Positions 6,360 through 26,247 of a stretch of DNA of 35,454 nt are shown here, piece after piece. Under the pieces are notes generated by a model. It was not told where the DNA came from. It saw nothing but the letters and a program-made list of their open reading frames with translations, and searched no databases. Location: positions 1-35,454 of IMG/VR virus record IMGVR_UViG_3300049192_000018, one strand, 5' to 3'. The position numbers and the translations under genes were made by a program. Source of the DNA: a virus. Lineage: Duplodnaviria > Caudoviricetes. Within the stretch, counting starts at the first letter, position 1. Every line of letters begins with the position of its first letter.

Positions 6360-6624
6360 GGGCACCCTGTGGGGCACCCTGAGTTTTAAGCATCAAGCGA
6401 TTTGCTGTGTAAGTCGTTGATTTTATTGGAGCGGGTGAAGGGAATCGAACCCTCGTATTCAGCTTGGAAGGCTGCTTGCGCCCTATAATCGGCTATAATT
6501 TGGCATCACGGCATCTAACAGCATGCCGTTGATTCACAACGACAATTTGACCTAGCGGGGCAAAACTGCAATGCCTTCAAAGGGCGGTCACTTTGCCGCC
6601 TGGGGCACCCTGAAGGGCACCCTG
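6360..6624. mobile_element. attP: tRNA-derived core flanked by paired integrase arm-type sites
   Basis: GGGCACCCTG at 6360, 6372, 6603 and 6615 (two pairs, 12-bp period) flanking a tRNA 3' half; IHF consensus TAAGTCGTTGATT at 6410-6422; adjacent to integrase. Confidence 0.9.
6427..6474 (-). tRNA. 3' half of tRNA-Gly(TCC) (att core; not a complete tRNA)
   Basis: Minus strand CAGC-CTTCCAA-GCTG-AATAC-GAGGG-TTCGATT-CCCTT-CACCCGC-T-CCA: anticodon arm, T arm, acceptor 3' strand and CCA; no D arm or 5' acceptor strand. Confidence 0.92.
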
Positions 6625-6650
6625 AACCACCAATAACAGAGGGGCATGCA

Positions 6651-7931
6651 GTGCTTACGAAGACACAAATTGATGCCGCGATACGCGACTGCCAGGGCGA
6701 AACCGTGCTGAACGACGGCAACAGGAACAAGGGCGAAGGCAGCCTGCGGCTGCGCATCCGCAAGACCGGCAAGGGCACCACGGCGACCTGGTTCGCGCAC
6801 TGGAAGAAGGAAGGCGAGCGCGGCAAAAAGCAGATCGGGTTCTATCCCGACATGACCCTGGCCGACGCCAGGACGAAGTTCGCCGACGACATCAGGCCAC
6901 TGGTGAAGTCGTCGCCGAAGCCGAAAGCTGCAATTGAATTCATCGGCGAAGCGCCTACCGTCGAAAACCTGTTCAAGAAATACGTAGCGCACCTGAAGGC
7001 GCGCGAAGCTGGCGCTGCTGGTCACGTCGAAAACGTTCTGCTGATCGGCAAGTACAACGCCGCCGACCAGCTGGGCCGCAGCAAGCTGGCGGGCGACGTG
7101 ACGCCAGCGGACATTCGCGCGCCGCTGACGGCAGCAGCCAAGCGCGGCGCACTGCGCACGGCAGACATTCAGCGCACCTACATGTCGTCAGCCTTCGGCT
7201 GGGCCATGAAGTCCACGAACGACTACACCCAGGAAGTGACATACGACTGGGGCATTCAGGTGAACCCAGTGATGGCCGTGCCGAAGGACAAGCGCGCGAG
7301 CAAGGAGCGCAACCGCAATCTATCTCCCGACGAAATGGCTGCTGTGTGGGCGGCGCTGACGGACGAAGGGTCCGGCGACTGCGCGCGCCTGGTGATGCTG
7401 TGCGGCCAGCGTGTGCAAGAAACCATCAAGGTGGACGGCTGCGAAGTCGATACGAAGCGCGCGCTGTGGACCATCCCAGCGCACAAGACGAAGGGCCGGA
7501 AGAAGCCGCACTTCATCCCCCTGCCCACCCAGGCGAACGAAATTTTCAAGCGCCTGAAGCGCTGGCACGGCGACGGCCCGCTGTTCCCAGCGCGCACAGG
7601 ATCGAAGGCCGAGCGCATGGGATTTTTGGCCGTGTCGCACCACATCGCATCGCTGGACTGCTGCGCGCCGTTCCAGGCACGCGATCTGCGTCGCACCTGG
7701 AAATCACGCATGGGCGACGGCGCGGGCGTTGACAGGTTCACGCGCGACCTGATCCAGCAGCACGCGAAGGGCGACACCGGCAGCCGCGTGTATGACCACG
7801 CTGACTATCTTCCGCAGATGCGGGCAGCGATGAAAAAGTGGGAAGCATGGTTTGAATCCAACGTGATAAAATCCGCACTACGATCACGACAAAAACGGAC
7901 AAATGCCAAGCCACAAGCCATTGCTGCCTAA
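6651..7931 (+). CDS. int: Tyrosine integrase with N-terminal arm-binding domain
   Basis: GxYP.MTLA.AR arm domain; CGQR..E, TK, RDLRRT, QH...VYD..DY catalytic pattern; beside attP. Confidence 0.95.
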   Translation: MLTKTQIDAAIRDCQGETVLNDGNRNKGEGSLRLRIRKTGKGTTATWFAHWKKEGERGKKQIGFYPDMTLADARTKFADDIRPLVKSSPKPKAAIEFIGEAPTVENLFKKYVAHLKAREAGAAGHVENVLLIGKYNAADQLGRSKLAGDVTPADIRAPLTAAAKRGALRTADIQRTYMSSAFGWAMKSTNDYTQEVTYDWGIQVNPVMAVPKDKRASKERNRNLSPDEMAAVWAALTDEGSGDCARLVMLCGQRVQETIKVDGCEVDTKRALWTIPAHKTKGRKKPHFIPLPTQANEIFKRLKRWHGDGPLFPARTGSKAERMGFLAVSHHIASLDCCAPFQARDLRRTWKSRMGDGAGVDRFTRDLIQQHAKGDTGSRVYDHADYLPQMRAAMKKWEAWFESNVIKSALRSRQKRTNAKPQAIAA

Positions 7932-8502
7932 GTCGGCAGCGAAAGAAAGAGGCATCCCCAGGTTCTTCACCGGCAAACCATGCGCACGCGGTCACGTTGC
8001 TGACCGCGTGACAGCATCCGGCAACTGTCTTGCCTGCCAGCGACTGGCGAATGCGGACCACTACACAAGGACGCTGAAGCGGCGCAGGCAAACAGAACTG
8101 AAGCCGCGAATTCTTGAGCAAGCGCGAGCGTACAACGCGCGAAACGCCGAGGCCATCAGCGAGAGGCGGCGCGAGCGATACGCGGCAAGGCGCGACGAAA
8201 TGATTGCGCGACGACGCGCCTACTACAGAAACAACCTTCCTGCGATAATCGCCACAAACCGGCGCATGATTGCCCGCAGGCTTCAGCGCATGCCGTCATG
8301 GTTGACCGACGACCAGGTGCGCGAAATCGTGGCCAAGTACCAACTGGCCGCCAAGCTGTCGATTGAAACCGGCATCAAGCACCACGTTGACCATATCGTG
8401 CCGCTGCAGGGGAAAACTGTAAGCGGCCTGCACGTACCATGGAATCTTCAGGTAATCCCCGCGCTAGATAATCTGCGCAAGAGCAATAAGCTGGCGGCGT
8501 GA
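7903..8502 (+). CDS. HNH endonuclease
   Basis: HHVDHIVPL...GLHVPWNLQVI..LDN..KSN; N-terminal FTGKPC..GH...C..C zinc motif; Arg-rich helical linker. Confidence 0.9.
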   Translation: MPSHKPLLPKSAAKERGIPRFFTGKPCARGHVADRVTASGNCLACQRLANADHYTRTLKRRRQTELKPRILEQARAYNARNAEAISERRRERYAARRDEMIARRRAYYRNNLPAIIATNRRMIARRLQRMPSWLTDDQVREIVAKYQLAAKLSIETGIKHHVDHIVPLQGKTVSGLHVPWNLQVIPALDNLRKSNKLAA

Positions 8503-8508
8503 TATAAT
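8500..8508 (+). promoter_or_regulatory. Extended -10 promoter
   Basis: Perfect TG-A-TATAAT overlapping the HNH stop codon. Confidence 0.65.
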
Positions 8509-8513
8509 CGCCG

Positions 8514-8696
8514 CATCTCACACCGATATGGCGACATATCACCCGCGCCACTTTCCAGATAGGACTGGGCGCAACGAAGGCACCAGAGAGGCGATGAAAA
8601 ACTGGTGCGCTGCCTGGCAACAGGTCACGCGGATAGCGTGGGTAACAGAATTCGATCCGTAGTAAGAAAAACCCGCCTTCGTGGCGGGTTTTTTGT
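8514..8696 (+). ncRNA. Candidate structured small RNA
   Basis: Five consecutive hairpins, two closed by GNRA loops (GCGA, GCAA), between an extended -10 and an intrinsic terminator. Confidence 0.55.
8667..8696. terminator. Bidirectional intrinsic terminator
   Basis: AAAAACCCGCC-TTCGT-GGCGGGTTTTTT between convergent units. Confidence 0.92.
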
Positions 8697-8734
8697 TGCT
8701 GCTGCGGGTTTTTATTGTGGTTCACCCGCACCAC

Positions 8735-9169
8735 TTAGTTAAAAGGGATGTCATCGTCGTCAACGGATGCAGGGAGCGTTTGTGCTGGTCGCGGCGCTGG
8801 CGCACCAGCTGCAGGACGCTGTGCTGGCGCTGGTGCGCTGCCCTGGCTTTCGCCGACACGCGGACCCAGTTCGACGTTATCGACGCGGGCCACCAGCTTG
8901 ACGCCTTCGCCATTCTGGCCCTGGTAAGTCTCCATGCGAACGTCCGCCAGGCAGAAGCAGTGCACGCTGCCTTTCGTCAGGTATTGCGCGAGCGCTTCGG
9001 CCTGCTTGCCCCACAGGCTGGCGTCAATCCACTGGCTTGGCGCGTATTGCTCGCCCTGCTTTTTCTGGCCGCAGATGTACGCCAGCGACAGGTTCGCAAC
9101 AGCAGTGCCGTCTGGCAGGTAGCGCACTTCCGCATCACGGCCCAGGCGGGCCAGTCCAATCATCTTCAT
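8735..9169 (-). CDS. ssb: Single-stranded DNA-binding protein
   Basis: RLGRDAEVRY..DG.AVAN.SLA, W.....WGK.AE....YL.KG, acidic tail DDDDIPF. Confidence 0.96.
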   Translation of the reverse strand: MKMIGLARLGRDAEVRYLPDGTAVANLSLAYICGQKKQGEQYAPSQWIDASLWGKQAEALAQYLTKGSVHCFCLADVRMETYQGQNGEGVKLVARVDNVELGPRVGESQGSAPAPAQRPAAGAPAPRPAQTLPASVDDDDIPFN

Positions 9170-16167: not shown

Positions 16168-17082
16168 ATGACGAAACCCAGCTGGCGTTCACTGATCGAC
16201 GCCAAGATTATCAAGCGCACCGACAACGGCATGGCAGTTCGGCCCGATGCAATCCGCATCATCGACGGGTTTAACCTGCGCGACACGACGGACCCGGATT
16301 ACCGCGCCGAACTGGACAGCCTGAAAGCACACATCAAGCGCGGCGGAAAAGTGCCACCGCTGGAAGTCGTTGTGTCCGACGACGGCCTGGGCGTAGATGT
16401 CGTGGACGGCCACCGCCGAACAGCAACTTACTGGGAGCTGATCGAAGCTGGCGATCCAATCGAATGGATTCGCATCGAACCGTTCGTGGGCAACGATGTG
16501 GACCGCACGGTGCGCATCATGACCAGCCAGGAAAACCGCAAGCTGAAGCCGCTGGAAATCGCAGCTGGCTATGCCCGCCTGATCGCGTTCGGCCTGTCGC
16601 CTGAAGACATCGCCCGCCGCGTCGGTAAGACCCGCCAGCACGTGGACCAGATGCTGGTTCTGACGAGCGCGCCGCATGCTGTTCAGCAGCTGGTAAAGGA
16701 TGGCAGCGTGTCGGCAACCGAAGCCATCAACCAGGTGCGTGCGCATGGTGACAAGGCCGCCGACAAGCTGGTGCAGGCGAAGCAGGCCAACGGCGGGAAG
16801 AAGGTCACTGCCAAGGCGCTGAAGCCGTGGACGCCGCCAGCAGCTGCTGTGCAGCCTGTTGTCGAAGCGCTGGACGCCCTGCACACGAAGCTGGACCCGA
16901 AAACGCGCATGGCGCTGCTGAACGAACCGGACGAATTCGCGCACGTCAGCATTTCGGCGCGCGTCGTGTATCAGCTGCTGAGCCAGCACGGCTGTATCGC
17001 CGAACTGCGCGAGAAGGCCGAACAGAAGCTGCGCGAGAAGCAGAACCAGGTGGCGCAGGGTGAACTTGCTGAAGGTGCGTGA
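16168..17082 (+). CDS. ParB/Srx-like protein with HTH
   Basis: GFNLR, VVDGHRR, LKPLE.A..Y.RL...G....IARRVGKT..HV.Q.L.L. Confidence 0.88.
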   Translation: MTKPSWRSLIDAKIIKRTDNGMAVRPDAIRIIDGFNLRDTTDPDYRAELDSLKAHIKRGGKVPPLEVVVSDDGLGVDVVDGHRRTATYWELIEAGDPIEWIRIEPFVGNDVDRTVRIMTSQENRKLKPLEIAAGYARLIAFGLSPEDIARRVGKTRQHVDQMLVLTSAPHAVQQLVKDGSVSATEAINQVRAHGDKAADKLVQAKQANGGKKVTAKALKPWTPPAAAVQPVVEALDALHTKLDPKTRMALLNEPDEFAHVSISARVVYQLLSQHGCIAELREKAEQKLREKQNQVAQGELAEGA

Positions 17083-17366
17083 TGGCTAGGAAGGCCACTA
17101 AGAAGGAGTGCCGCACATGCAAGCAGTTGCTGCCGTTCGCATCGTTTCATTCGAACGGTGGCACAAAGGCAGACGGAACGCCGAAACTGAAAGCGGACTG
17201 CAAGGCGTGCTATTCGGCGGCGCGTAGTTCGACGATGCTGCCGCTTGATGCGCGCAGGATCGCACAAGAACTGCACGCCCTGCGCAGCCTGGAAGCTGCT
17301 GTAATTAAAATTCTGGTTGCGCACGGTCTAATACCCGAACCAGACATAAAGAAAAGGAAATCATGA
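17082..17366 (+). CDS. Zinc-finger hypothetical protein
   Basis: KECRTCKQ.LP...FH...CKAC; coupled by TGATG and ATGA overlaps. Confidence 0.7.
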   Translation: MARKATKKECRTCKQLLPFASFHSNGGTKADGTPKLKADCKACYSAARSSTMLPLDARRIAQELHALRSLEAAVIKILVAHGLIPEPDIKKRKS

Positions 17367-25931: not shown

Positions 25932-25941
25932 CATGCCCGCA

Positions 25942-26161
25942 AAATCGCTTGTCCCACATTGCCCCTGTCAGTCTCTTGTTTGTCCCAACATAACTATCTG
26001 ATTATTAAGTACTAAGTACTACTTGGGACAAGTGGGACAAGATATTTATAAAAACATAGAAGCTATCGATAGAGAATATGCGCATGCATAATAGCCCGTA
26101 CCCTTTTTTATAAATCGCGTCCCACTTGTCCCTTTGTCCCAAATTGCTGTTGCTTGTCCCA
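25942..26161. repeat. Iteron array, putative replication origin
   Basis: Eight (TT)GTCCC(A) copies in both orientations around an AT-rich core; non-coding. Confidence 0.78.
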
Positions 26162-26247
26162 AACATCACGCATGAAACATTGCGCGTTCGTATCTATTTC
26201 CACTCGCCTATATTACAATTCGGCATCTACATTTCACGGATGCCAAC

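What the first reader, a model, noticed from the sequence alone, without database searches (positions are those of the whole stretch)
8500..8696. Stand-alone, densely structured candidate ncRNA downstream of the HNH gene
Seen: TGATATAAT, then hairpins GATATG-GCGA-CATATC (8525-8540), GCGC..CCAG-ATAGGA-CTGG-GCGC (8545-8572), GCACCAG-15 nt-CTGGTGC (8580-8608), GCCTG-GCAA-CAGGT (8612-8625), CACGC-GGATA-GCGTG (8626-8640), possible ACC/GGT closing pair, then a terminator. GNRA loops read correctly only on the + strand. Two loops expose GGA. The large loop holds an RBS and ATG of a 22-codon ORF (8594-8662). I do not recognise the family. Hypotheses: immunity/antisense RNA (as P4 CI or P1 c4), protein sponge, or RNA partner of the Arg-rich HNH protein.
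Basis: partly seen in the sequence, partly recalled or inferred. Interest (0 to 1): 0.7.

Follow-up and report, generated by a model that had tools for sequence, protein, structure and literature searches.

The report
Phage-captured hairpin from host decoy RNA
This bacterial virus carries a predicted 180-base RNA gene whose core is a 28-base hairpin, conserved by compensating base changes in dozens of other phages and repeated in uncatalogued non-coding stretches of Oxalobacteraceae bacteria, often right behind a cold-shock gene, so the phage likely makes a decoy that would soak up a still unidentified host RNA-binding protein.

Summary
The conserved part is one module at 8545-8572: a stem, a bulged A, six pairs or mismatches, and an AGAUA loop. 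It covaries strongly (95 sequences) and matches no Rfam family. It lies between the window's only perfect extended -10 element and a terminator. The closest sister phage keeps just promoter, module and terminator.

The module occurs in 64 distinct phage contexts, nearly always singly, and often just before a terminator. It is also in 60 of 151 genomes sampled from the family of Janthinobacterium (E<=0.001), as 1-5 direct repeats. There it sits either in stand-alone promoter-terminator units or in the 3' UTR of one cold-shock-protein clade (23 of 30 genes).

It is not tied to the HNH gene (1 of 68 loci). GGA is not conserved and CsrA was not found in five hosts. The other hairpins and the 22-codon ORF have no homologues.

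Best reading (0.5): a phage-captured decoy for a host RNA-binding protein, working like CsrB/RsmZ but not a member. The partner is unknown and transcription is not shown.

The parts
8500..8508 (+). Extended -10 element TG-A-TATAAT overlapping the HNH stop codon; predicted start about 8515
   Evidence: Only TGnTATAAT in the window; identical in L002; similar elements at the integrase stop of sister phages. Activity untested.
8515..8696 (+). Predicted small RNA, about 180 nt
   Evidence: Promoter-to-terminator span; transcript not shown
8545..8572 (+). Conserved module: GCGCC/GGCGC stem, bulged A (8550), C-G, pyrimidine mismatches, UCC/GGA stem, AGAUA loop (8557-8561)
   Evidence: Covariation; model R1 hit 8543-8574, 48 bits, the only significant one in the window (the window is a training row)
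8623..8642 (+).
   Evidence: 16 of 20 letters match a natural core; 1 of 1000 shuffles as close; lacks the CAC and the first loop A that 85 of 85 natural copies of that type have
8525..8540 (+). 5' hairpin with GCGA loop; not conserved
   Evidence: Absent from L002; no match in 853 loci
8580..8625 (+). Two further hairpins; not conserved
   Evidence: Pattern scans gave only chance hits
8594..8662 (+). 22-codon ORF with a GAGG upstream; probably incidental
   Evidence: Absent from L002; no convincing homologue
8667..8694 (.). Bidirectional intrinsic terminator shared with the convergent ssb gene
   Evidence: Sequence; near-identical in L002
7903..8502 (+). 199-aa HNH-type endonuclease gene (PHROG 1035-like); upstream neighbour, not part of the system
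6651..7931 (+). Tyrosine integrase; its attP core (3' part of tRNA-Gly, - strand, about 6428-6476) lies upstream, so the RNA region is not attP
8735..9169 (-). Convergent ssb gene bounding the cassette

Best explanation
The region is a predicted 180-base phage RNA whose one conserved part is a covarying 28-base hairpin also found, repeated, in non-coding units of Oxalobacteraceae bacteria, and it likely works as a decoy that would bind and titrate a host RNA-binding protein in the lysogen. Shown: the hairpin's geometry (bulged A, six pairs or mismatches, loop ending GAUA), its covariation, its spread, its repeats in hosts, its link to one cold-shock gene clade, and its independence from HNH. 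Inferred: transcription from the extended -10; that the phage's host is in this family; transfer from host to phage; that a protein reads the bulge and loop; action in trans. The partner is unidentified. A cold-shock-domain protein is my leading guess, about one chance in three given the decoy model.
For: (1) Unbiased pairing test: of 74 distinct IMG/VR contexts of a pattern that leaves the two inner pairs free, 37 have both Watson-Crick (1 in 16 expected). Of these, 29 have an outer stem of 3 or more pairs, against 2 of the other 37. (2) Alignment A1, 95 rows: the pair below the bulge is paired in 95 of 95 with 33 double changes and six pair types; covariation 0.465 against 0.121 shuffled and at most 0.107 slid. 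Frequent G-U pairs mark this strand as RNA. (3) Invariant letters are only the bulge context, the loop and GG, as in a protein-binding site rather than a pairing seed. (4) Host units carry 1-5 direct repeats before one terminator; Collimonas and Herbaspirillum have tandem arrays and several loci per genome. This is sponge architecture. (5) L002 reduces the unit to promoter, module and terminator, about 75 nt, so the module is the payload. (6) Many host copies face a convergent downstream gene, as does this one, which fits action in trans. (7) 23 of 30 genes of one csp clade carry it in the 3' UTR (one match loose), against 0 of 9 nearest csp genes outside the family and 0 of 12 canonical paralogues. 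L508 and L509 keep the csp-like leader without the csp ORF. (8) A complete two-module unit sits among P2-type tail genes in a Collimonas contig (L434).
Against: No binding partner and no transcript shown. Phage copies are single in 63 of 64 contexts, whereas sponges are usually multivalent. 29 of 64 lie within 30 nt of a terminator, which also fits a cis role at the 3' end. About half of the family sample has no match (76 of 151; five re-searched genomes stay empty) although all five have cold-shock proteins, which weakens a universal partner. Three of seven related phages lack the module. The phage's host is not pinned: no close relative of two phage proteins in the family or order samples, and the attP core also matches a genome of the order-level sample.
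Confidence: 0.5

Rival explanations
1. Cis-acting 3'-end element: the hairpin binds a host factor that stabilises its own transcript or tunes the adjacent terminator (csp mRNA in hosts; RNA cassettes or the int-HNH message in phages).
For: 3' UTR position in 23 of 30 csp-clade genes. Terminator within 100 nt in 40 of 64 phage contexts against 11 of 183 random places. A DEAD-box helicase gene (L510) or an IF1-like gene (L458) follows the terminator on the same strand.
Against: Units made only of modules with their own promoter (L002, L508, L387) have little else to stabilise. Convergent downstream genes make readthrough pointless. In several phages the module lies after a terminator or inside tRNA clusters.
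Confidence: 0.22
2. Decoy or inhibitor of a specific nuclease, toxin or defence protein (antitoxin-like RNA) that phages copy as counter-defence.
For: Patchy presence in the family; found in many distinct phage contexts; tRNA genes within 1.5 kb in 23 of 68 viral loci.
Against: No common toxin or nuclease neighbour among 122 flanking ORFs scanned. The csp link points to housekeeping regulation.
Confidence: 0.1
3. Base-pairing sRNA (Hfq-type, or c4/CI-like antisense immunity RNA).
For: Promoter, hairpins and U-tail are the usual sRNA layout. One 13-nt stretch is complementary to the ssb coding region.
Against: Stem letters covary freely and only a 5-nt loop is fixed. Matches within the window are at chance level (2 12-mers against 1.1 +/- 1.5 shuffled). 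No C4 or other Rfam hit. The non-conserved hairpins of this copy could still pair with something.
Confidence: 0.08
4. RNA partner or guide of the Arg-rich HNH protein.
For: Adjacent in the window and in L002.
Against: 1 of 80 HNH relatives has the module. 1 of 68 viral module loci has this HNH within about 1.5 kb. L557/L558 and L159 have the module after a related integrase without HNH.
Confidence: 0.03
5. The functional product is the 22-aa peptide.
For: ATG with GAGG upstream, in a loop.
Against: Absent from L002 and not found in 853 fetched loci. It would not explain the conserved module.
Confidence: 0.03

Closest known systems
CsrB/CsrC and RsmX/Y/Z protein-sequestering sRNAs (recalled; Rfam rsmX RF02144 seen)
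   Same: Host units with several repeated hairpins, their own promoter and terminator, and several paralogues per genome.
   Different: Loop ends in GAUA, not GGA; a bulged A at a fixed distance is invariant; CsrA not found in 5 of 5 host genomes; rsmX scores 22 bits against a cut-off of 56.
RocRp of Legionella plasmid pLPL (10.1101/623074; abstract and section list seen)
   Same: A mobile element carries a homologue of a chromosomal sRNA; there it substitutes for the host RNA.
   Different: No sequence or structure relation tested. Here only a 28-nt module is shared, and the carriers are temperate phages. ProQ-family genes do not track the module in five genomes.
StxS and lambda-type late-leader RNAs (PMC7547250; search listing and start of abstract)
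   Same: A short promoter-to-terminator phage transcript made in lysogens acquires a regulatory job. Many phage copies of the module sit in such short units.
   Different: This copy lies between integrase/HNH and ssb. That the other units are late leaders is my inference: 0 of 32 upstream ORFs matched an annotated antiterminator family.
LIN28 cold-shock domain binding a GAU core in let-7 terminal loops (10.1101/202036; passages)
   Same: A cold-shock domain reads a GAU core, AGAU included, in a hairpin loop. The module's loop is A(N0-2)GAUA and is linked to csp genes.
   Different: Eukaryotic protein. The 5-nt loop here is short. Binding by bacterial Csps is untested. A lead only.
P1 c4 / P4 CI antisense immunity RNAs (recalled)
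   Same: Small structured phage RNAs, sometimes near tRNAs.
   Different: No Rfam hit and no complementary target in the window.

Membership tests
CsrB/Rsm sRNAs | Repeated GGA motifs exposed in loops | tested here: not met
   The invariant loop is AGAUA; the GGA is in the stem and varies
CsrB/Rsm sRNAs | Host encodes CsrA/RsmA | tested here: not met
   PF02599 in 0 of 5 module-bearing genomes; the control rings in 3 of 14
CsrB/Rsm sRNAs | Rfam score above the gathering cut-off | tested here: not met
   rsmX 22.1 of 56 bits; no hit in host loci
CsrB/Rsm sRNAs | Multi-copy hairpin architecture in an independent transcription unit | tested here: met
   Host units with 2-5 repeats; this phage copy has one intact and one possibly decayed
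Protein-decoy sRNAs in general | Binds and titrates a protein in trans | not testable with these tools
   Needs a pulldown and expression in trans
c4/CI antisense immunity RNAs | Rfam match | tested here: not met
c4/CI antisense immunity RNAs | Complementary target sites in the phage's own transcripts | tested here: not met
   Exact matches at chance level; the record is 82% complete and bipartite short seeds would be missed
HNH-associated RNAs (HEARO/OMEGA type) | Consistent linkage of RNA and nuclease gene | tested here: not met
   1 of 80 and 1 of 68
tRNA / tmRNA / attP remnant | Cloverleaf or att core | tested here: not met
   ARAGORN finds 0 genes; the attP core lies upstream of the integrase
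Type III-like RNA antitoxins | Repeat array directly upstream of a toxin gene | tested here: not met
   Downstream genes vary and are often convergent

The most novel reading that the evidence does not exclude
Oxalobacteraceae, in which CsrA was not found, run an undescribed CsrB-like control circuit. An RNA-binding protein (possibly a cold-shock protein) reads a bulged-A/AGAUA hairpin, cold-shock mRNA tails and stand-alone repeat RNAs titrate it, and dozens of temperate phages have captured the minimal site to steer the circuit in lysogens.
Probability: 0.35. Interest if true: 0.85.

Novelty: new variant of a known kind. Interest (0 to 1): 0.68.

Why it matters
It defines an RNA family that Rfam 15 does not hold, with strong covariation, in a widespread family of soil, water and plant bacteria. 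The phage copies mark the minimal functional unit, a 28-nt hairpin that can be synthesised and used directly as bait. Finding its partner would show whether these CsrA-less bacteria have their own protein-titration circuit, whether cold-shock mRNA tails double as decoys, and why temperate phages keep carrying this element.

Tried and rejected
Rfam: nothing at gathering in the window or on the module in 43 host and phage loci; E-value mode gave mostly terminator matches, all far below gathering. BLAST of the region or of a host unit against GenBank phages and plasmids gave terminator-only or short chance matches.

Expression: seven public runs (eight lays), all Logan contigs, were laid on the Janthinobacterium unit L387. 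They cover genes and intergenic DNA alike, so transcription is not shown. One metatranscriptome (X12) has a 144-nt contig lying wholly inside the predicted RNA, a hint only. The window itself was not searched in runs.

Partner candidates: CsrA and RRM not found. ProQ-family genes are in 2 of 3 module-bearing and 2 of 2 module-free genomes. The csp clade is not required: five module-bearing genomes lack it. Single looser matches in host genomes were mostly inside or antisense to ORFs and revealed no target mRNA.

Host assignment by phage proteins failed. A Q-type gene upstream of other phage copies was not confirmed. HNH protein: no Pfam family and no solved relative. A resemblance to the PyrR binding loop and to the 16S 790 loop was recalled, not tested beyond the empty Rfam scans, and set aside.

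Literature: ten full-text searches showed no description in their listings. Motif words were absent from the supplements of PMC7011215 and PMC6337395 and from six files of PMC10690425, where three files could not be searched and may hold the motif. The PMC7011215 table (part 1 of 3 read) lists coordinates only and could not be matched to the motif. Five look-ups in this scan's earlier findings gave nothing on this motif.

Full report
SETTING. The window is a 35,454-base IMG/VR record, 82% complete, of a temperate phage with a contractile tail and lambda-type head genes. The finding lies between an integrase (6651-7931) plus an HNH-type endonuclease gene (7903-8502) and a convergent ssb gene (8735-9169). 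The attP core, the 3' part of a tRNA-Gly, is upstream of the integrase, so the region is not an att remnant. ARAGORN and Rfam find nothing.

OBSERVATION. The z-score of -4.6 holds on both strands and owes much to the terminator. TGnTATAAT at 8500 is the only one in the window. The consensus scanner called neither promoter nor terminator.

WHAT IS CONSERVED. It keeps the extended -10, a 28-nt hairpin and the terminator, and lacks every other hairpin. Its inner pairs are swapped from CC/GG to GG/CC. A complete IMG/VR scan with those pairs left free gave 93 stretches and 74 distinct contexts. 37 have both pairs Watson-Crick (about 5 expected), and 29 of them have an outer stem of at least 3 pairs, against 2 of the other 37. 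A second stem type (CACYRYGC-AGATA-GCRYRGG) gave 32 more stretches, 29 distinct, 24 with an outer stem.

COVARIATION. Alignment A1 has 95 rows. Rows were required to pair at the two inner positions, so those two pairs are circular. I also left out 10 chance-looking rows (6 in the script, 4 from its list), which leans the outer pairs upward. The pair under the bulge is paired in 95 of 95 rows with 33 double changes and six pair types. The covariation score is 0.465 against 0.121 in shuffles and at most 0.107 when slid. The shuffle control ignores relatedness. The motif is: stem, C, bulged A, C, five variable positions, loop, five, GG, stem. In the CACUUU type, two of the middle positions are pyrimidine mismatches. 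Loop variants keep a first A and a final GAUA. The 8626-8640 hairpin may be a decayed second copy.

WHERE IT COMES FROM. Most of the rest do not pair. Model R1 matches 75 of 151 genomes of the J. lividum family at E<=0.05, and 60 at E<=0.001. It matches 6 of 151 in an order-wide sample: four are family members and two are weak. In 401 genomes of the class, closely spaced copies appear only in two family members. Five large family genomes stay empty on re-search.

HOST ARCHITECTURE. Host copies come in three forms. (a) Stand-alone units: an extended -10, 1-5 direct repeats and a terminator. (b) Rod-shaped 90-nt units, tandem up to four or five times, several behind a tRNA cluster. (c) 3' UTRs of one cold-shock-protein clade with AHF[QG]DI in place of AHFSAI. 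The clade is in 34 of 151 genomes; 23 of the 30 genes fetched have the module within 600 nt (one loosely), against 0 of 9 nearest csp genes outside the family and 0 of 12 canonical paralogues within 330 nt. L508 and L509 have the csp-like leader but no csp ORF, and five genomes with stand-alone units lack the clade. The RNA part therefore persists without the protein gene. Other neighbours vary, and many are convergent.

IN PHAGES. 64 distinct contexts, 63 with a single copy. A terminator follows within 100 nt in 40 and within 30 nt in 29 (control 11 of 183). tRNA genes lie within 1.5 kb in 23 of 68 loci, and this HNH family in 1. Six sister phages with 77-92% identical integrase, plus one at 49%, show that the stretch behind the integrase is a variable non-coding cassette that starts at a -10-like element near the stop codon. 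HNH is in 1 of 7 and the module in 4 of 7 (two of these identical). The HNH gene is best read as an insertion ahead of the cassette (inference).

MECHANISM. Fixed bulge and loop letters on freely covarying stems, repeats within one RNA, several paralogues per genome, units made of nothing else, and convergent neighbours together fit a protein-binding site used as a decoy (inference by analogy to CsrB/RsmZ, recalled). CsrA was not found in five hosts, so the partner is another protein. The csp link, and the GAU core read by the LIN28 cold-shock domain (10.1101/202036, passages), make a Csp a reasonable first guess. Against it, Csps are in module-free genomes too. A mobile element carrying a copy of a host sRNA has a precedent in RocRp (10.1101/623074, abstract). 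The main rival is a cis element at transcript 3' ends. Transcription is not shown: only contigs were available. The phage's host is inferred from the module alone.

NOVELTY. No Rfam family covers the module, and ten literature searches plus three supplement searches showed no description (see Tried and rejected; three supplementary files of PMC10690425 were unread, and subscription journals are largely missing). Verdict: a real, new RNA family, of which this is one phage-borne member with private extra hairpins; a likely new variant of protein-decoy RNAs. Interest 0.68.

Noticed in passing
L557/L558:3721-4560, L559:3772-4440, L560:3772-4290, L561:3778-4270: The stretch behind the integrase of sister phages is a 0.5-0.9 kb non-coding cassette of tandem structured modules: tRNA-like pieces, paired-end units that recall C4 RNAs (recalled), and a recurring GACAGCC-hairpin unit. 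Rfam finds only one tRNA there.
   Followed up: partly
L504, L505, L510, L511, L513, L514, L531, L536, L555, L854-L883: A cold-shock protein clade (AHF[QG]DI) with a shared leader, found in 34 of 151 family genomes; close members were not found outside the family in the order sample.
   Followed up: partly
L397, L400, L437, L483: Tandem arrays of 3-5 rod-shaped units (period about 100-137 nt) in Collimonas, Herbaspirillum and Duganella, some directly behind a three-tRNA cluster.
   Followed up: partly
L386, L389: Module-bearing units lie next to Betaproteobacteria toxic sRNA genes (RF02278).
   Followed up: no
L709, L711-L713, L716, L728-L731, L734; L706, L710, L714, L715, L721, L724, L726; L158, L161, L162, L165: Three recurring, mutually different 100-200 nt structured leader types precede the module in other phages; none of those scanned matched Rfam.
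   Followed up: no
window 25940-26165: AT-rich gap with about ten TTGTCCC/GGGACAA repeats in both orientations, upstream of the late activator gene; iteron-like, possibly the replication origin.
   Followed up: no
window 6360-6385 and 6600-6625: Paired GGGCACCC direct repeats flank the attP core on both sides and recur in the sister phages; likely integrase arm-type sites.
   Followed up: no
window 8703-8734: A further inverted repeat between the terminator and the ssb stop codon, absent from L002.
   Followed up: no
window 17079-17366: A 95-aa ORF that resembles the N-terminal zinc-finger-like part of the same HNH family without the nuclease domain.
   Followed up: no
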